From a virus (lineage: Duplodnaviria > Heunggongvirae > Uroviricota > Caudoviricetes): 9,731 bases of DNA. Under the pieces are notes generated by a model. That model saw nothing but the letters and a program-made list of their open reading frames with translations. It was not told where the DNA came from and did no database searches. The position numbers and the translations under genes are program-made. Positions 1 to 9,731 of this stretch are shown one piece after another (within the stretch, counting starts at the first letter, position 1; every line of letters begins with the position of its first letter). The stretch lies in the IMG/VR virus record IMGVR_UViG_2713896772_000022. The stretch is one strand, 5' to 3'.

Positions 1-171
1 TTCTGACGAGTCGCTTACTTAAAAGTGAGATGTCAGCGATCATTACTAAAACGGTATACACATTCCTGCGCGCAATGCCCCGCCCGCCTGCCCGCTTCGC
101 TTAACAGACTGGTTTTCATGCACCCCGTAAATCGTCTCAGAAGCCACCACACAAGGGCTTTCGCGTCAAAA

Positions 172-206
172 ATGGCGCATGAGACTCATGCGTTTTCATG
201 CGCCAT
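172..206. repeat. Perfect 11-bp inverted repeat ATGGCGCATGA / TCATGCGCCAT with 13-nt spacer
   Basis: Read directly: 172-182 is the reverse complement of 196-206. The spacer carries further CATGCG copies. A5 precedes on the plus strand (T5 follows on the minus strand), so it could be a second minus-strand terminator or an operator. Confidence 0.6.
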
Positions 207-250
207 AGATATGCACTCATACGCTCTCAGGCCAGCCAGGAAAAAGGCGT

Positions 251-274
251 AAAAAATCCCGGTACTGGACCGGG
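251..274 (-). terminator. Rho-independent terminator of the late (sid-psu-ogr) operon
   Basis: Stem CCCGGT (258-263) / ACCGGG (269-274) with 5-nt loop. On the minus strand it is followed by ATTTTTT (251-257), 24 nt after the ogr-like stop at 298-300. Confidence 0.6.
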
Positions 275-297
275 ACTTCGTGGTCGTATTTTGCTAA

Positions 298-570
298 TCA
301 GACAGGAATTTGCTGACGGTTTGACAGCTTTGACGCGGAGCCATAGCGATTGAGAGTTTGCTGTTGTTTTTCCGGTATTTTTGCTTTGTCTGATTCCTGT
401 TCATTGCACCGAGGCTTCATAATTATCGTATCCACGCTTTCCAGTGCGGTAAATGTGCAGGAACATTCCAGATTCTGGCACTGATACCATGAGCGTTTAA
501 CCGACGGAGCTTCATAGGCGCTGGTTCTGGCGTGAGCGACCGCGCCACATTCAGGACACTTCAGGGCCAT
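298..570 (-). CDS. delta: Ogr/Delta-family zinc-finger late-gene transcriptional activator (90 aa)
   Basis: MALKCPECGAVAHARTSAYEAPSVKRSWYQCQNLECSCTFTALESV closely resembles P2 Ogr as I recall it (MFHCPLCQHAAHARTS...YHQCQNVNCSATF..ESV), with the C-x2-C...C-x4-C zinc motif. ATG at 570 chosen over the track start at 672 because the protein then starts at the conserved motif; GGAG lies ~10 nt upstream; ATG follows the psu stop (TGA 574-572) by one base. Confidence 0.85.
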   Translation of the reverse strand: MALKCPECGAVAHARTSAYEAPSVKRSWYQCQNLECSCTFTALESVDTIIMKPRCNEQESDKAKIPEKQQQTLNRYGSASKLSNRQQIPV

Positions 571-2030: not shown

Positions 2031-2050
2031 ACTATTCACTACTGTTCACT
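2031..2050 (+). repeat. Tandem 10-bp direct repeat ACTATTCACT / ACTGTTCACT (TTCAC iteron-like)
   Basis: Read directly; contains TGTTCACT, one mismatch from the TGTTCACC octamer I recall as the P4 alpha-binding type I iteron. Confidence 0.45.
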
Positions 2051-2114
2051 TCAATAAAAATATAGTAAATACATGTGGTTAAGTGGTGTAGTGTTTTAAT
2101 TAAAGTGATCATCT

Positions 2115-2134
2115 ACTGTTCATGACTGTTCACA
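2115..2134 (+). promoter_or_regulatory. Tandem ACTGTTCATG / ACTGTTCACA repeat that also forms a TGT-N12-ACA box (2117-2134); iteron and/or PLL-like activator site
   Basis: Read directly. A CATATAAG -10-like hexamer lies at 2164-2171, ~45 bp downstream. The site is ~660 bp upstream of the alpA-like ATG, so the promoter assignment is weak. Confidence 0.35.
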
Positions 2135-2210
2135 GAGATAAAATTAAACATATATTTCTTTTTCATATAAGTCGCGATATTTATTTCAGTTTATTACTGG
2201 ATCTTTTCTC

Positions 2211-2250
2211 CTCACCAATATTCACCAGTATTCACCAGTATTCAATACAT
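2211..2250 (+). repeat. Four tandem 10-bp units CTCACCAATA / TTCACCAGTA / TTCACCAGTA / TTCAATACAT (ori-like iteron array)
   Basis: Read directly; helical-phase 10-bp periodicity and a TTCACC core. Confidence 0.5.
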
Positions 2251-2789: not shown

Positions 2790-3050
2790 ATGAATAGTAT
2801 TTCCGTTTCCACCCCGGCACCAGCTGCTCCGGTGCTCCCGGTTCCGGCTCAGCAGGAGCGCTTCATACGATTACCTGAAGTGATGCACCTTTGCGGGCTA
2901 TCCCGTTCAACCATCTACGACCTTATCAGCCGCGATGCCTTCCCGCAGCAGATATCCCTGGGTGGAAAAAATGTGGCCTGGGTACAGTCGGAGGTCAGTG
3001 CATGGATGGCGGCGCGAATTGCTGCCCGCGAGCAAGGAGGCCATGCGTGA
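2790..3050 (+). CDS. AlpA/Vis-family phage transcriptional regulator (86 aa)
   Basis: [47 protein letters not shown] has the AlpA-family helix-turn-helix signature (LSRSTIY...FP..LGGR.V.W...E). ATG at 2790 with GAGAGG ~8 nt upstream; stop TGA 3048-3050. Confidence 0.85.
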
Positions 3051-3085
3051 AACTTGCTTTGCAGTCTCATCTTCTTTTTTCTGGC

Positions 3086-3115
3086 TTGCGTCCTGATATC
3101 TTTTCCAGGTATAGT
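3086..3115 (+). promoter_or_regulatory. Candidate sigma70 promoter (TTGCGT-N18-TATAGT), possible PLE-like promoter
   Basis: -35-like TTGCGT at 3086-3091 and -10-like TATAGT at 3110-3115; lies upstream of the seqA-like element. Predicted by eye only. Confidence 0.3.
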
Positions 3116-3144
3116 TTTCCCGCTGCCGCAAAATCGGCTGCCGG

Positions 3145-3177
3145 GCGTAGGAACCCGAGTTACTTATTGGCGACACC
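3145..3177 (+). promoter_or_regulatory. seqA-like target sequence (GCGTAGGAAC ... TACTTATTGG)
   Basis: Blocks GTAGGAA and CTTATTGG are exactly complementary to TTCCTAC (3321-3327) and CCAATAAG (3306-3313) downstream; the same two blocks recur at 3352-3392. Confidence 0.4.
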
Positions 3178-3178
3178 A

Positions 3179-3200
3179 GACGCGCCGTGCGTCTTTTTTT
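3179..3200 (+). terminator. Hairpin GACGC-GCCGT-GCGTC followed by T7 (terminator-like; possible immunity terminator or RNA structure)
   Basis: 5-bp GC stem at 3179-3183 / 3189-3193 and a run of seven T at 3194-3200, immediately after the seqA-like element. Confidence 0.4.
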
Positions 3201-3239
3201 ACGTCGTTGCTCAGGCACACCCATTTTTCGGGCTGCGGT

Positions 3240-3340
3240 GCTTATACCTTAGCCCCTTTCAGATAATGGTGGTCCGGGCGGGGCAGCCTTCGGGCTGGCC
3301 GGTTTCCAATAAGGCCGGTATTCCTACCCCCGTTCGGGTC
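3240..3340 (+). ncRNA. Candidate CI-like immunity RNA containing a seqB-like segment (3303-3330); boundaries approximate
   Basis: GC-rich untranslated stretch with several short hairpins (e.g. GCC-TTCG-GGC; CCGG...CCGG) and a segment antisense to both seqA-like and seqC-like. No convincing ORF with a ribosome-binding site. Confidence 0.25.
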
Positions 3341-3351
3341 ACCACCCATGA

Positions 3352-3392
3352 GCGTAGGAACTCCGGTGGTGGCATTTACCGCTACTTATTGG
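3352..3392 (+). promoter_or_regulatory. seqC-like target sequence overlapping the RBS of the first small gene
   Basis: GCGTAGGAAC at 3352-3361 and TACTTATTGG at 3383-3392; the second block is fused to the GGAGG Shine-Dalgarno of the ATG at 3404. Confidence 0.4.
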
Positions 3393-3403
3393 AGGTTGCC
3401 CTT

Positions 3404-3595
3404 ATGGCTACGATCCTCGCCCCGTCACATCCTCAATTTATATTTGTTTTTGCCGCCGTTCGTCGTGCAGAACGTAAACCACGTATCAGTATGCTGCGTA
3501 TCATCGCCAGCAATGAGCATCATGCACGTCTTTCACTGGTCCATGAGTATGTGCTTTGTCTTGCTGCTCGCCTGCCTGTCCGGGAGGTGATCTAA
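3404..3595 (+). CDS. Small protein (63 aa), first gene of the replication operon; possibly Kil-like with a nested in-frame internal start
   Basis: ATG at 3404 with GGAGG 8 nt upstream; stop TAA 3593-3595 overlaps the next ATG (TAATG). Internal in-frame Met at codon 30. Functional assignment is by position only. Confidence 0.4.
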
Positions 3596-3819
3596 TGAAT
3601 CACGCCGCAATCTCTTATGACGATATTCTCCGCCTGAAGCATCTTCGTAACGTGGGAGAGTTTGTCACTGGAATGGCTGTTCTTCAGGATTGCTACGAAA
3701 AACCTGCCAGTGCTCAATGTGAACAACTGGTTTCCCTGATTTATCTGATGACAGAGCAGCTTGATGGCGTGGTACAGCGTTGCCAGGATGACCTCATGAA
3801 CATGGAGGTGGTGCAATGA
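3595..3819 (+). CDS. Hypothetical small protein (74 aa)
   Basis: ATG at 3595 preceded by GGGAGGTGA about 6 nt upstream; the track's upstream extension starts at a non-ATG codon. Stop TGA 3817-3819 overlaps the next ATG (ATGA). Confidence 0.55.
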
Positions 3820-4139
3820 AATCACGCACTCTTTCCCTTTCACTTCGGGTAGCGTTGTATCGCCGCGCGGTAGCCTGCGCCTGGTTGAGTGCCTGCTATC
3901 AGCAAAACCGCCATCTGCAGCTCACTCTGGATGAAATTGAAACCGCTATTGCCCGTGAGCTTGAAGGATTTTATCTGCGACAGCACGGGCAAACAAAAGG
4001 CATGGAAATCGCCTGCGCCCTGCTTTCAGACCTGATGGAATACGGCCCTCTAATGTCCTGTCCCGCACTCTCCCAGCTCGGAATAGCCGTAATGGATGAG
4101 TTATGCGTCCGTCACATCAAAAAGCCGGTTTTACACTGA
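3816..4139 (+). CDS. Hypothetical protein (107 aa), immediately upstream of the primase
   Basis: ATG at 3816 with GGAGGTGG upstream; translationally coupled to the previous gene; stop TGA 4137-4139 is 14 nt before the primase ATG. Confidence 0.6.
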
Positions 4140-4153
4140 GGGAGAACTGCGTC

Positions 4154-6487
4154 ATGTCAGGAATGAAAGTCAGTCAGGCCGTGAAGGCTGCCCGCGGTCA
4201 CTGGGCTCAGATTCTGCCAGCGCTGGGCGTGAATATATTGAAAAATCGCCATCAGCCTTGCCCGGTCTGTGGCGGTAAAGATCGTTTTCGCTTCGACGAT
4301 CAGGAAGGACGCGGAACATGGTTCTGCAATCAGTGCGGAGCCGGGGATGGTTTAGCGCTTGTCACCAGGGCACTGAATGTGGATATCAGTGAAGCAGCTG
4401 ACAGGATACATGGACTGACACATGATCTGTCTGTAGTTAATTCCGAGGTCAGGACGTTAACCGCCGATACCGATAGCGGGAAAGATGCAGCGGCAGCACT
4501 TGCCGCGCGACTGCTGCAAGCCTCGCGTGAATCTGCCGGAAACACTTATCTTACACATAAAGGTTTCCCGGAGCATATTTGCCATGAGCTGACTTCAGCT
4601 CATAAGGCCGGTGGTATGATGTTCCGCCCCGGTGATTTGATCGTCCCACTCTATAACGCTGACGGGGAGCTGGTGAATATTCAGCTCATCAGTGGCAATG
4701 GTAGCAAGTGTTTTCTTAAAGGAGGTCAGGTTAAGGAGGCCTATCATCTGATAGAAGGGGGCGGGAGTTCTGTAAGAAGGATTTGGATTGCGGAAGGTTA
4801 CGCCACGGCGCTTACCATTCATTATTTGACAGGAGAAGCCGTCATGGTGGCATTTTCGTCGGTCAACTTTCTTTCTCTGAGCAGCGTTGCCCATAATAAG
4901 TATCCGGGATATCAGTTAATTATTGCAGCGGACCGCGATCTGAATGGTTCAGGCCAGAACAGGGCTGAAACTGCTGCAAAAGCGAGTCAGTGTGACATTG
5001 TGCTGCCACCGGTTTTTGGTGACTGGAATGATGCGCTTACCCAATACGGAGAGGAATCCACCCGGAAGGCAATTCTTGAGGCTTTGAAGCCACATAACGC
5101 CAGTCCTTTCGACACAATGAGTGAAGCAGAATTCACAGCGATGAGTGTCAGCGAAAAAGCTCAGAGGGTTCGGGAGCATTACAGGGATGCACTGGCGGTT
5201 GATCCGAACGGGCAGCTTTTATCCCGCTACGAGTCTGGAGCGTGGAAAGTTATTTCTCAGTCAGATTTTGCCCGAGATGTCGCAGCCCTTTTCCAGCGCC
5301 TCGGGGCACCGTTTTCCTCAGGAAAAATTGCCTCACTGGTGGAAACATTAAAGTTAATTGTTCCGCAGCAGCAAAATCCGTCACGTCATCTGATTGGTTT
5401 TCGTAATGGCGTTCTCGATACGCGAACAGGGCTTTTTAGTCCGCACTGTAAAGAGAACTGGCTGCGTACCCTGTGTGAAGTCGATTTCACGCCACCGGTA
5501 AAGGGGGAAACGCTTGAAACTCATGCCCCGGCATTCTGGCGTTGGCTGGACCGGGCCGCCGGACACAAGCCAGCAAAACGCGACATTATTCTTGCAGCGT
5601 TATTTATGGTGCTGGCGAACCGCTATGACTGGCAGCTCTTTCTGGAAGTGACTGGCCCTGGTGGAAGTGGCAAAAGTATTCTGGCTGAAATTGCGACCAT
5701 GCTTGCTGGAGAGGATAACGCCACCTCTGCGACCATTGAAACGCTGGAGTCCTCGCGAGAACGTGCGGCTCTGATAGGTTTTTCTCTTATTCGCCTGCCT
5801 GATCAGGAGAAGTGGAGCGGCGACGGCGCCGGGCTTAAGGCTATAACTGGTGGCGATGCAGTATCTGTGGACCCCAAATATCAGAATGCTTATTCAACAC
5901 ATATTCCGGCGGTTATCTTGGCCGTAAATAATAATCCTATGCGCTTCACTGATCGCAGTGGTGGTGTGTCCCGCAGGAGAGTTATTCTGCATTTTCCTGA
6001 GCAGATAGCACCGGAAGAACGCGATCCGCAGTTGAAAGATAAAATTGCACGAGAACTGGCTGTGATTGTTCGTCAGCTCATGCAGCGTTTCAGCGATCCG
6101 ATGAGCGCCAGAACATTGCTTCAGTCGCAGCAGAATTCTGATGAGGCTCTCACCATCAAGCGTGATGCTGATCCAGCATTTGATTTTTGTGGCTACCTTG
6201 AGGCATTACCTGACACCAACGGTATGTTTATGGGGAACGCCAATATTGTCCCACGCCAGCCACGTACATACCTTTACCATGCCTACCTCGTATACATGGA
6301 GGCTAATGGCTATAAAAACACCCTGAGTCTTACGATGTTTGGCAAAGGGTTGCCAGTCATGCTGAAGGAGTACGGGCTACATTATGAGAAACGGCGAACT
6401 AATCAGGGAATGCAAACTAACCTCACTTTGAAAGAGGAGAGTAATGCAGACTGGCTGCCCAAGTGTGATGAGCCAATATTAAAATAA
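4154..6487 (+). CDS. alpha: P4 alpha-type bifunctional DNA primase/helicase (777 aa)
   Basis: N-terminal zinc ribbon CPVCGGKDRFRFDD...CNQCG; Toprim-like IAEGYATALT and AADRD; Walker A VTGPGGSGKS of a D5/SF3-type helicase. ATG at 4154 has GAGGGAG 9 nt upstream and gives 777 aa, the length I recall for P4 alpha; the track start at 4103 is an alternative. Confidence 0.92.
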   Translation: MSGMKVSQAVKAARGHWAQILPALGVNILKNRHQPCPVCGGKDRFRFDDQEGRGTWFCNQCGAGDGLALVTRALNVDISEAADRIHGLTHDLSVVNSEVRTLTADTDSGKDAAAALAARLLQASRESAGNTYLTHKGFPEHICHELTSAHKAGGMMFRPGDLIVPLYNADGELVNIQLISGNGSKCFLKGGQVKEAYHLIEGGGSSVRRIWIAEGYATALTIHYLTGEAVMVAFSSVNFLSLSSVAHNKYPGYQLIIAADRDLNGSGQNRAETAAKASQCDIVLPPVFGDWNDALTQYGEESTRKAILEALKPHNASPFDTMSEAEFTAMSVSEKAQRVREHYRDALAVDPNGQLLSRYESGAWKVISQSDFARDVAALFQRLGAPFSSGKIASLVETLKLIVPQQQNPSRHLIGFRNGVLDTRTGLFSPHCKENWLRTLCEVDFTPPVKGETLETHAPAFWRWLDRAAGHKPAKRDIILAALFMVLANRYDWQLFLEVTGPGGSGKSILAEIATMLAGEDNATSATIETLESSRERAALIGFSLIRLPDQEKWSGDGAGLKAITGGDAVSVDPKYQNAYSTHIPAVILAVNNNPMRFTDRSGGVSRRRVILHFPEQIAPEERDPQLKDKIARELAVIVRQLMQRFSDPMSARTLLQSQQNSDEALTIKRDADPAFDFCGYLEALPDTNGMFMGNANIVPRQPRTYLYHAYLVYMEANGYKNTLSLTMFGKGLPVMLKEYGLHYEKRRTNQGMQTNLTLKEESNADWLPKCDEPILK

Positions 6488-6498
6488 CGATTAACTAA

Positions 6499-6523
6499 CC
6501 CGGCTGATGCCGGGCTTCTTATT
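6499..6523 (+). terminator. Rho-independent terminator downstream of the primase
   Basis: Stem CCCGGC (6499-6504) / GCCGGG (6509-6514), loop TGAT, then CTTCTTATT; 12 nt after the primase stop. Confidence 0.5.
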
Positions 6524-6548
6524 GGAAACGCACAAATGTAGAGATAGC

Positions 6549-6575
6549 TGTTCACTCTTCACCTCGCTGTTAACA
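6549..6575 (+). repeat. crr-like iteron cluster: TGTTCAC, TTCACC and the palindrome TGTTAACA
   Basis: Read directly. Further inverted copies at 6610-6617 (GGTGAATA) and 6750-6756 (GTGAACA). The same motif family recurs ~4.4 kb away at 2031-2250. Confidence 0.45.
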
Positions 6576-6837
6576 CGTAAGCAATTGATATATAAGTTAA
6601 AAATGGCAGGGTGAATAGTGTGCATGGTTTTGCGAAAAAAAAGTATTTTTTGTAGAGTCAAGTCCCGGTTTGGATCCGTTTAACGGAACCTAACTAGATT
6701 GACTATTTCTCTGATGATTTTTGGATAAATAATCAACAAAAATCAAAATGTGAACAGAGAATGGTGGGGGCACAAAAAGGGGCATAATTGAATTAATTAT
6801 AATTAAATTTCAATTTTTACAATAGGTTAAATGTGTG

Positions 6838-6859
6838 TGCGAGTCCGGCCTTCGCACCA
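6838..6859 (+). other. att core-like sequence (partial tRNA 3' end ...GAGTCCGGCCTTCGCACCA); putative attR and satellite boundary
   Basis: TGCGAGTCCGGCCTTCGCACCA resembles the T-loop/acceptor 3' end of tRNA-Leu leuX and the P4 attP core as I recall them, with one missing G. No complete tRNA lies upstream (AT-rich), so it is a partial copy. The coding character changes downstream. Confidence 0.5.
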
Positions 6860-7392
6860 AGTTACTAAATTCCTTACAATACAGTTAGTTAGACGATTAA
6901 ATCTGTCTCTTTTGCCTGTAAGAAATGCTCTGTTATGTCCCTTGAAAAAGCCGCTGTGGTTGATAGTGGTAATTGGGATGTTAACTCATAGCGGCGTGTC
7001 GTTCCAAGCGTCAAACACGTACTGACTCAACTTGAAAGCTATGACGTAGCCACCGTCTCTAAACAATCCCAAAACTTTTAGTGCAGCGCATTTTAGCCCG
7101 ATGCCCCCATTCTGTCGCCGTCGCGAGACGCCGCAGGGGATAAACAGGTTTATGGTGGTCACGGTACTTGCAGACCATATGCAAGCTCTGCCAGCGGTTC
7201 GGCCTCGCTCCCCTTGGGTACATGGTCATCCTGATAAGCCTCACTAACTGACATAACCCTGATGAAGTCGCAAGAGGCTCCGCTTGTTGTCTTACCACCA
7301 ACGGGGCTTTATGGATTCTATTGCTTAATATATGATTGTATCAAACTTAGACTGCATAATTTAAACGAACATAACAATCAGGCAGGGGAAGA

Positions 7393-8217
7393 ATGATAAA
7401 GCCATTTTCTGTGAGGTATGGTCATGTTGACGTTAGAGAGCATGTCCAGCTGAATGATCTTAATTCTGATACACGCATGGCATTGTGGAATTGCTTATAT
7501 CTTTTCCTTTGGACTAACAATCGTCAAACTGCTACAGCAACAAAATGTGCGCAGTCTGTGTGGATATATTATCTAAATCAACCTGCGGATAATATTCCTC
7601 GTTATGAAAGTGGATACAAAAGTGATAAGACGTTGCTGACTGCTATCCGAGATTATATATATGGGGAAGCATGGTATTTGGTATATGATTTAATTGAGTT
7701 CATCATTGAGAGAACTAATTCATATATTAATCTATCGAAGCATCTCAATTCCATCTTTAAAAAGCATGGCGTTGGTTATACCATAATAAATGGTTGTATT
7801 ACTCCTATTTCAAATGATAACGAAATTGAAAGTGTTCAGAACGCAGTTGATAATGGCACTGATTCATCGCGTAGCCATTTCGAAAGGGCGTTACAACTAA
7901 TGACGGATAGAGAGCAGCCAGACTACAGAAACTCGATTAAAGAGTCTATCTCTGCAATTGAATCTTTATGCAGGAAAATCACGGGCAATGATAAAGGAAC
8001 CTTGGGGGCTTGTCTTAAAGCTATAGAGGAAAAAGGATATATACACTCTGCAATGAAAGGCGCTTTTAGTCAGCTCTATGGTTATACAAGTGATCAGGGT
8101 GGAATACGTCATGCGCTAACAGAAGAAGATGTAAATCCTACCTTAGCTGAAGCTAAATTTATGTTAGTCACTTGCAGTGCGTTCAGTAATTATCTGTTGT
8201 CAAAAATAAGTGATTAA
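7393..8217 (+). CDS. Hypothetical protein (274 aa), low-GC cargo; function unknown
   Basis: ATG at 7393 with GGGGAAG upstream; long uninterrupted ORF with AT-rich codon usage unlike the satellite core; stop TAA 8215-8217 followed by a strong hairpin. No motif I can assign with confidence. Confidence 0.75.
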   Translation: MIKPFSVRYGHVDVREHVQLNDLNSDTRMALWNCLYLFLWTNNRQTATATKCAQSVWIYYLNQPADNIPRYESGYKSDKTLLTAIRDYIYGEAWYLVYDLIEFIIERTNSYINLSKHLNSIFKKHGVGYTIINGCITPISNDNEIESVQNAVDNGTDSSRSHFERALQLMTDREQPDYRNSIKESISAIESLCRKITGNDKGTLGACLKAIEEKGYIHSAMKGAFSQLYGYTSDQGGIRHALTEEDVNPTLAEAKFMLVTCSAFSNYLLSKISD

Positions 8218-8235
8218 TTACAGGTTTATAGTTAC

Positions 8236-8256
8236 GAGTGGGTTAGTTACCCACTC
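8236..8256. terminator. Hairpin between convergent genes (GAGTGGGT-TAGTT-ACCCACTC), likely bidirectional terminator
   Basis: Perfect 8-bp stem at 8236-8243 / 8249-8256, between the stop codons at 8215-8217 (plus) and 8266-8268 (minus). Confidence 0.5.
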
Positions 8257-8265
8257 CCTTTAAAA

Positions 8266-8838
8266 TTATTCACCAGACTCTAATCTTTTTTCTCTTTTCT
8301 CATCTCTCCTTTTTATTGCCAAATCGTGTTGCTCTTGCAGATACGTGCGTTCTTCGTTTCTATCGCTTGAAGTATATACGTCTGCTTTTACTTTTTTAGC
8401 TCCTTGTGCAATAGGTTTCCAATCCTCTCTTATACCTTTAATTTGTTCTGCAATTTGCGTCAATGGGCTTCTCGCTCCTAGATAACTTATTCCTTCAAAT
8501 GTCGCCATGTCATACACATATTCATTTGTTTCTCTATCGTTTGATTTAGGTTTGCTTGCCCAGCTTATATTAATATTATAAATTTGATCTTTGATTTGTT
8601 CATACTTACAGAGATTGCTGGTAAGTGATTGCCCATTTTTTAACACGCTTACCTTACTAAACGGAATCTCACTTTTTTCTCTATGCTCCGCATTTACTAG
8701 TGGAGGATCAAACACAACCTCAACATTATAGGCAGGTGCGTTCCCTGTATTAGCAATGTTAATATCAAAGTAAAAAGCGGCCCAAGGGTTTGGCTCAAGT
8801 GTTACAACTATATGGGGTTGAGCTGATGCGTCAACCAT
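8266..8838 (-). CDS. Hypothetical protein (~190 aa), low-GC cargo; 5' end abuts the IS911 terminus
   Basis: The track ORF (208 aa) starts at GTG 8892, inside the IS-end sequence. The first ATG is at 8838 (MVDASAQPHIVV...) with only a weak Shine-Dalgarno. N-terminal half looks beta-rich, C-terminal tail highly charged (KRRDEKREKRLE). Confidence 0.6.
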   Translation of the reverse strand: MVDASAQPHIVVTLEPNPWAAFYFDINIANTGNAPAYNVEVVFDPPLVNAEHREKSEIPFSKVSVLKNGQSLTSNLCKYEQIKDQIYNINISWASKPKSNDRETNEYVYDMATFEGISYLGARSPLTQIAEQIKGIREDWKPIAQGAKKVKADVYTSSDRNEERTYLQEQHDLAIKRRDEKREKRLESGE

Positions 8839-8938
8839 TCTTTTTGTCTCGTCTGCTCTGAAGTGGTGAAGTGGTTTACTGAATTTGGCCACCTGAACAG
8901 AGGTGATATGCTCACCTCAGAACAACACAGGTGCTCCA

Positions 8939-9731
<793 letters not shown>

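What the first reader, a model, noticed from the sequence alone, without database searches (positions are those of the whole stretch)
6549..6756. Second iteron cluster (crr-like) just downstream of the primase terminator, ~4.4 kb from the first
TGTTCAC (6549-6555), TTCACC (6558-6563), the palindrome TGTTAACA (6568-6575), and inverted copies GGTGAATA (6610-6617) and GTGAACA (6750-6756) repeat the motif family seen at 2031-2250. Two iteron clusters separated by about 4.5 kb with the replication gene between them is the arrangement I recall for P4 ori and crr.
Basis: partly seen in the sequence, partly recalled or inferred. Interest (0 to 1): 0.5.

Follow-up and report, generated by a model that had tools for sequence, protein, structure and literature searches.

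The report
Satellite-phage P4 crr replication site homolog

Summary
All five motifs are at the stated coordinates. P4-type iterons (T[GAC]TTCAC[CA]) occur 3 times in 6549-6756 against 0.04 expected (0 of 1000 shuffles).

The window is a P4-like satellite prophage at tRNA-leuX of E. coli O26:H11. Downstream of the alpha primase-helicase gene (73% identical to P4 alpha), the order matches P4: terminator, one 120-bp crr unit (6532-6651), inverted repeat, integrase arm repeats, att core (6840-6859). A profile of 76 crr units from other species hits 6532-6651 at E=5e-16.

It differs from P4 in three ways:
- There is one unit, not two.
- Only 3 of the 6 iteron positions are P4-grade. The other three carry variants (TGTAGAG, TGTTAACA, GTGCATG).
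- GTGAACA at 6750 lies outside the unit, among the att arm sequences, and is probably not an iteron.

In E. coli relatives, iteron blocks stay 87-93% identical while spacers drop to 49-61%. This argues that the blocks are under selection.

About 75 of 80 P4-like elements surveyed carry such a unit after alpha. A single unit is the commonest form.

Function, meaning alpha binding and an ori-crr interaction needed for replication, is inferred and not tested. The prophage has lost its cos site.

Verdict: a real crr homolog and a new member of a known kind. Interest is low.

The parts
4154..6487 (+). alpha gene: primase-helicase and origin-binding initiator, 777 aa (the longest ORF starts at 4103)
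   Evidence: Pfam finds Zn_Ribbon_Prim, Toprim_3, D5_N, DUF5906 and Pox_D5. It is 73% identical to P4 alpha over 772 aa. Residues 671-770 match the solved P4 origin-binding domain 1KA8 at E=1.7e-48.
6499..6524 (+). intrinsic terminator of alpha (CCCGGC-TGAT-GCCGGG followed by a T-rich tail)
   Evidence: Terminator scan. It occupies the same position as P4 't-alpha', annotated at 4604-4628.
6532..6651 (+). single homolog of the 120-bp crr repeat unit; this is the core of the finding
   Evidence: nhmmer with a profile of 76 family units gives E=5e-16, 58 bits. A profile of the two P4 units alone gives E=2e-6. BLAST of P4 4242-4391 against this site gives 70% identity, E=4e-6. The MAFFT alignment is colinear with P4's att-proximal unit.
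6537..6543 (+). iteron position 1, non-canonical variant TGTAGAG (family consensus GTGAACAG)
   Evidence: It is invariant (7 of 7 columns) in five E. coli relatives whose spacers have diverged to 49-61% identity.
6549..6556 (+). iteron position 2, TGTTCACT (7 of 8 matches to P4 TGTTCACC)
6556..6563 (+). iteron position 3, TCTTCACC (identical to the annotated P4 type-1 repeat at 4398-4405)
6568..6575 (.). iteron position 4, palindromic variant TGTTAACA (family consensus ATTCACC)
   Evidence: The GTTAA core is conserved across the E. coli lineage.
6610..6617 (-). iteron position 5, TATTCACC on the minus strand (a variant annotated as a type-1 repeat in P4 at 4366-4373)
6620..6626 (-). iteron position 6, degenerate: GTGCATG where the family has GTGAACA
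   Evidence: The relative L087 still has GTGAACA here.
6635..6651 (.). A8-GTA-T6 tract that closes the unit (family consensus AAAAAAACTTTTT, at least 90% conserved)
6667..6694 (.). imperfect inverted repeat GGTTTGGATCCG-TTTAA-CGGAACCTAAC between the crr unit and the att arms
   Evidence: It aligns with the perfect P4 inverted repeat GTTTGGATCCG-AGCTA-CGGATCCAAAC. Its function is unknown.
6750..6756 (-). isolated TGTTCAC(A) outside the crr unit; probably not a functional iteron
   Evidence: P4, L007, L086 and L087 have no counterpart, and the motif is mutated in L085.
6767..6786 (+). two integrase arm-type repeats (GGGGCACA and GGGGCATA, 12-bp spacing)
   Evidence: They align with the P4 'attP arm sequence repeat' pair at 4151-4174.
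6840..6859 (+). attR core, the end of the prophage: CGAGTCCGGCCTTCG-CACCA
   Evidence: It equals the 3' end of tRNA-Leu (leuX) and the P4 attP core GAGTCCGGCCTTCGGCACCA, minus one G. The intact tRNA-Leu and the integrase lie at the other end of the element.
2031..2250 (+). partner iteron cluster, homolog of the P4 ori
   Evidence: The iteron pairs CTATTCACTACTGTTCAC and CTGTTCATGACTGTTCAC align with the P4 ori type-1 pairs. In 47 of 65 family loci an iteron cluster lies about 1.7-2.2 kb upstream of alpha; in the window it is 2027 bp upstream.
3816..4139 (+). DUF5375 gene, homolog of P4 ORF106, directly upstream of alpha
   Evidence: Pfam DUF5375, E=2.4e-48. P4 ORF106 carries the same domain annotation. 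That ORF106 is cnr, and that Cnr modulates alpha binding to ori and crr, is from my own recall. PMC8628076 says only that the cnr family lies between epsilon and alpha.

Best explanation
Window 6532-6651 is the cis replication region (crr) of a P4-like satellite prophage integrated at leuX.

Anatomy: it is one copy of the roughly 120-bp iteron-bearing unit that P4 carries twice. It sits between the terminator of the alpha primase-helicase gene and the att site.

Inferred mechanism, by homology with P4:
- The C-terminal winged-helix origin-binding domain of alpha binds the TTCAC-core iterons both here and in the ori cluster at 2031-2250, about 4.4 kb away on the other side of the replication operon.
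- The two alpha-DNA complexes interact by looping.
- That interaction is needed in cis for initiation at ori. The product of the DUF5375 gene (cnr, by my recall) would modulate binding.

Shown here: homology, synteny, iteron enrichment, family-wide conservation and lineage-level sequence constraint.
Inferred only: alpha binding, looping and the cis requirement in this element.
For: Identity of the element:
- The order alpha, terminator, unit, inverted repeat, arm repeats and att core is colinear with P4.
- crr-unit profiles hit the site at E=2e-6 (P4 units only) and E=5e-16 (family profile).
- P4-defined iterons are enriched: 3 observed against 0.04 expected, 0 of 1000 shuffles.

Family context:
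- About 75 of 80 P4-like loci from different species carry at least one unit downstream of alpha. A single proximal unit is the commonest form: 25 loci including the window, against 21 with P4's adjacent pair.
- Across 76 units, iteron columns are 0.93 conserved and spacer columns 0.68 (Mann-Whitney p=1.3e-7).

Constraint in the window's own lineage:
- In five E. coli relatives, 44 of 55 block columns are invariant against 23 of 57 spacer columns (Fisher p=1.7e-5).
- Blocks are 87-93% identical to the window and spacers 49-61%.

The rest of the replication module looks intact:
- Alpha is full length, 73% identical to P4 alpha, and its origin-binding domain matches 1KA8.
- The same origin-binding-domain variant occurs in L009 and L013, which have canonical TGTTCACC iterons. 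Binding specificity is therefore probably unchanged.
- A partner ori cluster and a DUF5375 gene are present.
Against: - Only 3 of 6 iteron positions are P4-grade.
- The window unit matches 82% of the family's most conserved columns. That ties the lowest of the 76 reference units, and its profile score is 58 bits where most alpha-adjacent units score 95-114.
- There is one unit, where the characterised P4 crr has two.
- The prophage is defective for transfer. No cos site was found in 32.8 kb, and ISCro1 abuts delta. Selection for replication may therefore be relaxed in this particular copy.
- No binding or replication data exist for this element.
- The primary P4 papers could not be read. The looping and cis-requirement steps rest on the RefSeq label 'cis required region for replication' and on my recall of Flensburg & Calendar 1987 and Ziegelin et al. 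1993 and 1997.
Confidence: 0.85

Rival explanations
1. Decaying relic. The stretch descends from a crr but no longer works. Iteron positions 1, 4 and 6 have mutated away, one of two units has been lost, and the cos-less prophage is fixed in the O26 chromosome, where alpha-dependent replication is no longer selected.
For: - The window unit ties the lowest match to conserved columns among 76 reference units.
- cos is absent and an IS66-family element abuts delta.
- attR carries a 1-bp deletion.
- At least 105 E. coli genomes carry a 99% or more identical copy, which fits vertical inheritance in a clone.
Against: - The non-canonical blocks are not private to this copy. TGTAGAG and GTTAA are invariant in relatives whose spacers are only 49-61% identical. 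That indicates constraint over a longer period than the O26 clone.
- Alpha, the DUF5375 gene, ash, alpA and the C4 RNA are all intact.
- Single-unit crr is the commonest family architecture, so having one unit is not itself a sign of decay.
Confidence: 0.3
2. Site-specific recombination apparatus. The motifs belong to the attP arm region, as binding sites for Int, the AlpA/Vis-type excisionase or IHF, rather than to replication.
For: - The finding's interval overlaps the P arm. The inverted repeat (6667-6694), the GTGAACA at 6750 and the arm-type repeats (6767-6786) lie within 200 bp of the att core.
- GTGAACA at 6750 directly abuts the arm repeats.
Against: - The iteron-bearing unit travels with alpha, not with att. 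In loci that carry 0.7-2.3 kb of cargo, or a different integrase and att type, the unit is still present.
- The same 8-mers recur at the ori, far from att.
- P4's annotated arm repeats are a different sequence (GGGGCAYA).
- This rival may hold for 6660-6790 only.
Confidence: 0.05
3. Negative copy-number control locus. As with the auxiliary iteron clusters of plasmids P1 (incA) and F (incC), the cluster titrates or handcuffs the initiator to limit replication rather than being required for it.
For: - The general architecture fits: an iteron cluster outside the origin, with the initiator gene between the two clusters.
- A DUF5375 gene lies next to alpha. By my recall its P4 homolog ORF106 is cnr, a negative copy-number regulator that acts through alpha's DNA binding.
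Against: - The homologous P4 region is annotated as 'cis required region for replication', and engineering papers treat it as essential for replication. Its role there is positive.
- Nothing in the sequence discriminates between the two roles.
Confidence: 0.07
4. Chance clustering of short AT-rich motifs in an intergenic region.
For: - TTCACC alone is not enriched: 8 observed against 4.6 expected, and 20 of 200 shuffles reached 8.
- The region is AT-rich and non-coding.
Against: - No shuffle among 1000 reached the observed count, whether the whole window or the local intergenic region was shuffled.
- The profile match is E=5e-16.
- Synteny with P4 is colinear.
Confidence: 0.01

Closest known systems
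Bacteriophage P4 crr (cis replication region; NC_001609 4291-4590)
   Same: - Position: directly after the alpha terminator and before the attP arm repeats and core.
- Homologous 120-bp unit with six iteron positions in both orientations, ending in an A-tract/T-tract.
- The same TTCAC-core octamers as the partner ori, about 4.4-5 kb away across the replication operon.
- Cognate alpha 73% identical.
   Different: - One unit instead of two 120-bp direct repeats 60 bp apart.
- Three of six iteron positions carry lineage-specific variants (TGTAGAG, TGTTAACA, GTGCATG).
- DNA identity to the P4 unit is only about 70%, so BLAST against the phage collection finds nothing.
crr units of other P4-like satellite prophages of Enterobacterales (surveyed here; e.g. 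L009, L011, L013 single-unit; L050 nearest unit, 74%)
   Same: - Single-unit architecture right after alpha, as in 25 of the surveyed loci.
- The same origin-binding-domain variant of alpha (LSLTMFGKG / EKRRTNQGMQ) as L009, L013, L048 and L050.
   Different: Those units keep canonical iterons (GTGAACAGT..TGTTCACTGTTCACC..GTGAACAGTGTGAACAGT) and score about 100 bits. The window unit scores 58 bits.
Auxiliary iteron clusters of iteron plasmids (P1 incA, F incC, R6K gamma/alpha/beta origins)
   Same: Initiator-binding repeats lie at a second site distant from the origin. DNA looping between iteron sets bound by the same initiator is the presumed mode of action. This comparison is general knowledge and was not tested here.
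   Different: - No sequence or protein homology: alpha is a primase-helicase, not a Rep/pi-type initiator.
- The plasmid clusters are mainly inhibitory, whereas P4 crr is annotated as required.

Membership tests
crr of P4-like satellites | Lies immediately downstream of the alpha (primase-helicase) gene and its terminator, on the att side of the element | tested here: met
   Alpha stop at 6487, terminator at 6499-6514, unit at 6532-6651, attR at 6840-6859. The order is the same as in P4.
crr of P4-like satellites | Sequence homology to the roughly 120-bp crr repeat unit | tested here: met
   nhmmer gives E=2e-6 with the P4 units alone and E=5e-16 with the 76-unit family profile.
crr of P4-like satellites | Several type-1 iterons (TGTTCACC and its annotated variants) in both orientations | tested here: met
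   TGTTCACT (+), TCTTCACC (+) and TATTCACC (-) are present, 3 against 0.04 expected. Positions 1, 4 and 6 are non-canonical, so this is met with a reduced iteron count.
crr of P4-like satellites | Partner ori cluster with the same iterons on the other side of the replication operon | tested here: met
   Cluster at 2031-2250, 2027 bp upstream of alpha, aligned with the P4 ori iteron pairs.
crr of P4-like satellites | Cognate alpha protein with the P4-type origin-binding domain | tested here: met
   Residues 671-770 match 1KA8 at E=1.7e-48. Overall identity to P4 alpha is 73%.
crr of P4-like satellites | Bound by alpha and required in cis for alpha-dependent replication | not testable with these tools
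   This needs EMSA or footprinting and replication assays. The only support is the P4 annotation 'cis required region for replication'.
P4 prototype crr architecture | Two 120-bp direct repeats separated by about 60 bp, with ten iterons | tested here: not met
   The window has a single profile hit. The distance from alpha stop to att core is about 350 bp, against about 540 bp in P4. This feature describes the prototype, not the family: 25 surveyed loci have a single proximal unit and 21 have an adjacent pair.

The most novel reading that the evidence does not exclude
The most novel reading not excluded has two parts.

1. The non-canonical blocks TGTAGAG and TGTTAACA are not decay. They are selected variant sites that change how alpha or a second factor engages the crr in this E. 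coli lineage.

2. The directly repeated crr units of P4-like satellites act as homologous flanks for the minor cargo hotspot between primase and att.
- In about a third of the surveyed elements, 0.7-2.3 kb of defence-like or toxin-antitoxin-like genes sit before or between units.
- Unit-unit recombination would gain or lose that cargo and would leave single-unit crr regions like this one.
Probability: 0.15. Interest if true: 0.45.

Novelty: new member of a known kind. Interest (0 to 1): 0.2.

Why it matters
For this window it matters little. It confirms that the unannotated 350 bp between alpha and attR of a widespread E. coli O26 prophage holds the satellite's second replication site and its attachment arm. 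It also fixes the prophage boundary at 6859.

At family level there are two modest points.
- The crr was defined on P4 alone. The large surveys of P4-like satellites that I could read do not mention ori, crr or iterons. The small survey here shows that the unit is nearly universal after alpha, that one unit is commoner than P4's two, and that iteron positions are the conserved part.
- This gives a simple sequence marker for the alpha-side end of P4-like elements. It also gives a frame for the cargo genes found between alpha and att.

Tried and rejected
- **Megablast of the whole window against phages.** Only the IS911 end matched. P4 itself is too diverged for 'near' mode.
- **blastn 'distant' of 6488-6870 against phages.** No match at E<=1e-3. 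The homology needs synteny or a profile to be seen.
- **Primary P4 replication papers.** Tocchetti 1999 and Ziegelin 1993 could not be retrieved by PubMed or PMC id. Full-text searches returned only engineering papers and surveys. The mechanistic steps therefore rest on the RefSeq annotation and on recall.
- **Altered alpha specificity to explain the variant iterons.** Rejected as the main explanation. The same origin-binding-domain substitutions (K>T, L>K, H>R, K>N) occur in L009 and L013, whose units have canonical iterons.
- **GTGAACA at 6750 as a fourth iteron.** Rejected, because it is not conserved outside close relatives.
- **Cargo between alpha and crr as a new hotspot.** Rejected as new. 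A hotspot between the primase and one att site, holding 7% of P4 defence systems, is already reported in PMC13586616.
- **tRNA scan.** Found no tRNA gene. The att core is only a 19-nt tRNA fragment.
- **Rfam scan.** Found nothing in 6400-6900.
- **Search for a second att core downstream of AbiJ.** Found none.

Full report
**1. The observation**

To avoid circularity I took the iteron definition from an independent source. The P4 RefSeq record annotates sixteen 'ori type 1 repeats', which read T[GAC]TTCAC[CA] and are mostly TGTTCACC.
- This pattern occurs 9 times in the window against 1.9 expected.
- Three copies fall in 6549-6756 and three in 2031-2250.
- None of 1000 dinucleotide-preserving shuffles placed 3 in the finding's interval (mean 0.04) or in any 208-bp span.
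- Shuffling only the local intergenic DNA gave the same answer.
- The individual short motifs are weak on their own.

The cluster is therefore real and non-random.

**2. What the window is**

The first 8866 bases are 100% identical to the chromosome of E. coli O26:H11 and related strains. The annotated context reads:
- tRNA-Leu (leuX), integrase, two cargo genes, ISCro1;
- delta, psu, sid-like;
- a non-coding gap;
- alpA, an ash-family gene, a 74-aa ORF, a DUF5375 gene, alpha;
- a non-coding gap;
- an AbiJ-NTD4 gene, a hypothetical gene, IS911.

Pfam confirms the P4 core set: Ogr_Delta, Psu, Phage_AlpA, Phage_ASH, DUF5375, and the Zn-ribbon, Toprim, D5_N and Pox_D5 domains of alpha. Rfam finds the P4-type immunity RNA (C4 antisense RNA, 3262-3349) and isrK (3122-3199). 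This is a P4-like satellite prophage. Alpha is 73% identical to P4 alpha over 772 residues. Its residues 671-770 match the solved P4 origin-binding domain 1KA8.

**3. What the finding is**

In P4, read in the sense of alpha, the annotated order is:
- alpha stop;
- terminator;
- crr, made of two 120-bp direct repeats 60 bp apart, each with five annotated type-1 repeats;
- an inverted repeat;
- two attP arm repeats;
- the attP core.

The window aligns colinearly with this from 6487 to 6860, except that about 180 bp is missing. That is the size of one repeat plus the spacer. The window parts are:
- terminator 6499-6514;
- one unit at 6532-6651;
- inverted repeat 6667-6694;
- arm repeats 6767-6786;
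- a core, CGAGTCCGGCCTTCG-CACCA, at 6840-6859. It equals the 3' end of leuX and the P4 attP core minus one G.

The prophage therefore ends at 6859. The AbiJ gene and IS911 lie outside it.

Homology of the unit is statistically supported:
- nhmmer with the two P4 units gives E=2e-6;
- nhmmer with a profile of 76 non-redundant units from other species gives E=5e-16, 58 bits;
- pairwise BLAST against P4 gives E=4e-6.

**4. Anatomy of the unit**

The family consensus is GGTGAACAGT..ACTGTTCACTCTTCACC..ATTCACC..TATCAC..TGAAA..AAAA..GGTGAACAGTGTGAACAGT..AAAAAAACTTTTT. It has six iteron positions: two pointing one way at the ends and a block of three pointing the other way.

| Position | Window sequence | Coordinates | Status |
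|---|---|---|---|
| 1 | TGTAGAG | 6537-6543 | variant |
| 2 | TGTTCACT | 6549-6556 | P4-grade |
| 3 | TCTTCACC | 6556-6563 | P4-grade |
| 4 | TGTTAACA | 6568-6575 | variant |
| 5 | TATTCACC, minus strand | 6610-6617 | P4-grade |
| 6 | GTGCATG | 6620-6626 | variant |

Coordinates are read; the status column rests.

P4, L007, L086 and L087 have no counterpart, and it is mutated in L085. I do not count it as part of the crr.

**5. Family survey**

A search with alpha over one genome per species returned 80 P4-like loci. The unit profile finds at least one unit downstream of alpha in about 75 of them. Architectures at 45 bits or more:

| Architecture | Loci |
|---|---|
| Single unit right after alpha (includes the window) | 25 |
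| P4-like adjacent pair | 21 |
| Units separated from alpha or from each other by 0.7-2.3 kb | about 26 |

An iteron cluster also lies about 1.7-2.2 kb upstream of alpha in 47 of 65 loci. In the window it is 2027 bp upstream. The window's cluster 1 aligns with the P4 ori iteron pairs. The two-cluster design is therefore a family trait, and one unit is not unusual.

**6. Is it under selection?**

- Across the 76 units, iteron columns are 0.93 conserved and spacer columns 0.68 (p=1.3e-7).
- The window unit is at the diverged end. It matches 82% of the most conserved columns, which ties the minimum of the reference set.
- The divergence is nevertheless old and shared. In five E. coli relatives fetched from hits of 72-95% identity, the six blocks and the A/T tract are invariant in 44 of 55 columns, against 23 of 57 spacer columns (Fisher p=1.7e-5).
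- Against the two most distant relatives, blocks are 87-93% identical and spacers 49-61%. The variant block TGTAGAG is invariant in 7 of 7 columns.
- The blocks were defined from the family profile, which excludes these sequences.

This favours a constrained, and hence probably functional, element over free decay. The sample of six sequences is small.

**7. Does alpha still fit?**

The window's origin-binding domain differs from P4's at several positions (LSLKMFGLG>LSLTMFGKG; EKRHTKQGIQ>EKRRTNQGMQ). Exactly this variant occurs in L009 and L013, whose units carry canonical TGTTCACC and GTGAACA iterons. A change of specificity is therefore not needed to explain the variant positions.

**8. Mechanism**

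Shown here: homology, position, iteron content and sequence constraint.

Inferred from P4: alpha binds the iterons at ori and crr, the two complexes interact, and the crr is needed in cis for initiation at ori. Cnr, which I recall to be P4 ORF106 and hence the homolog of the DUF5375 gene here, would modulate alpha's DNA binding.

The basis for the inferred steps is limited:
- the P4 record's label 'cis required region for replication';
- engineering papers that keep the crr as the element 'essential for ... replication';
- my recollection of Flensburg & Calendar 1987 and Ziegelin et al. 1993 and 1997, which I could not open.

I also recall that one of the two P4 repeats suffices for crr function. 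That would fit the prevalence of single units, but I could not verify it.

**9. Caveats on this copy**

No cos sequence was found. The 19-nt P2/P4 cos is absent at up to 3 mismatches, and there is no BLAST match to the P4 cos region in the 32.8-kb locus. ISCro1 abuts delta. The prophage can probably no longer be packaged, and selection on replication may be relaxed in the O26 clone. I give the relic rival 0.3.

**10. Comparison and novelty**

The closest known element is the P4 crr itself. The window's element is a homolog with one unit and a reduced, partly variant iteron set. RefSeq annotates nothing in this interval ('none').

The surveys of P4-like satellites that I could read do not mention crr, iterons or an origin of replication. 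Two further papers on P4 hotspots do not mention crr. The family-level picture above therefore adds a little. The finding itself is a new member of a known kind and of low interest.

**11. Side observation**

In about a third of related loci, compact ORFs fill the DNA between alpha and a crr unit, or between two units. They include:
- an AriA/OLD/GajA-like ATPase;
- a SIR2-like protein;
- an Mrr-type endonuclease;
- an FRG-domain protein;
- Fic/YhfG and GNAT pairs;
- many proteins with no family match.

[quoted passage not shown] I did not find its relation to the repeated crr units described in the papers I could read. In L057, L038 and L064 the arm repeats follow only the distal unit. This argues for cargo inside the element rather than tandem remnants.

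Noticed in passing
Related loci, e.g. L004 5992-7905, L015 5875-6982, L016, L031, L048, L054, L057 (between units); L005, L006, L022, L034, L038, L050, L058, L060, L063-L066 (between alpha and the first unit): In about a third of 80 P4-like loci, 0.7-2.3 kb of cargo sits between alpha and a crr unit or between two directly repeated crr units. The cargo includes an AriA/OLD/GajA-like ATPase, a SIR2-like protein, an Mrr endonuclease, an FRG-domain protein, Fic/YhfG and GNAT pairs, and many unknowns. A primase-att hotspot is already published (PMC13586616), but I did not find its framing by crr repeats described in the papers I could read. Unit-unit recombination could gain or lose this cargo.
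   Followed up: partly
window 1-300 and L002 9373-12300: No P2/P4 cos site was found anywhere in the 32.8-kb locus. The 19-nt cos is absent at up to 3 mismatches, and there is no BLAST match to the P4 cos region. An IS66-family ISCro1 ends just before window position 1, about 300 bp from the delta stop codon. The satellite has probably lost its packaging site.
   Followed up: partly
window 6840-6859: The attR core equals the leuX 3' end and the P4 attP core but lacks one G (CCTTCG-CACCA against CCTTCGGCACCA). The same deletion occurs in the E. coli relatives L083-L086. It might impair excision.
   Followed up: partly
window 3122-3349: Rfam finds isrK (3122-3199) and the C4 antisense RNA, the P4 CI immunity RNA (3262-3349). 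Both lie inside the ORF that RefSeq calls 'Icd-like' (3047-3595), which Pfam identifies as Ash/epsilon family.
   Followed up: no
window 2208-2245: About three and a half tandem 10-bp repeats (CCAATATTCA CCAGTATTCA CCAGTATTCA ATAC), each holding a TATTCAC(C) iteron-like core, lie where P4 has its three 10-bp 'type 2' ori repeats (CCACTTAAAG). The type-2 sequence itself is absent.
   Followed up: no
window 6667-6694: The inverted repeat GGTTTGGATCCG-TTTAA-CGGAACCTAAC is conserved in position with a perfect 11-bp inverted repeat in P4 (GTTTGGATCCG/CGGATCCAAAC) and with L007 (GGTTCGAATCCG..., which resembles a tRNA T-arm). It has two mismatches here. The P4 record does not annotate it, and its function is unknown.
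   Followed up: no
window 7393-8892: Just outside attR lie an AbiJ-NTD4 domain gene (7393-8217, Pfam E=5.8e-27) and a convergent 190-208-aa ORF with no family match. An IS911 copy follows (8867-9731, 95% identical to the copy in phage Sf6). This may be a defence cargo remnant of another leuX island.
   Followed up: no
alpha C-terminus, window about 6160-6480, compared with L009, L013, L019, L026, L047, L048, L050: Two origin-binding-domain types are seen. The P4 type (LSLKMFGLG / EKRHTKQGIQ) occurs in L026 and L047, which have adjacent two-unit crr regions. The window type (LSLTMFGKG / EKRRT[NS]QGMQ) occurs in L048, L050 and the E. coli relatives L083-L087, which have single, split or distal units. 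L009 and L013 share the LSLTMFGKG motif and the H>R change, but their wing reads EKRRKNQGIQ. This is anecdotal, from about a dozen sequences.
   Followed up: partly
window 3718-3725 (-), 4672-4679 (-), 8267-8274 (+): Three further P4-grade octamers lie outside both clusters: TGTTCACA inside the 74-aa ORF upstream of the DUF5375 gene, TATTCACC in the first quarter of alpha, and TATTCACC beyond attR. They are isolated and were not examined. By my recall, P4 has a second origin (oriII) inside alpha.
   Followed up: no
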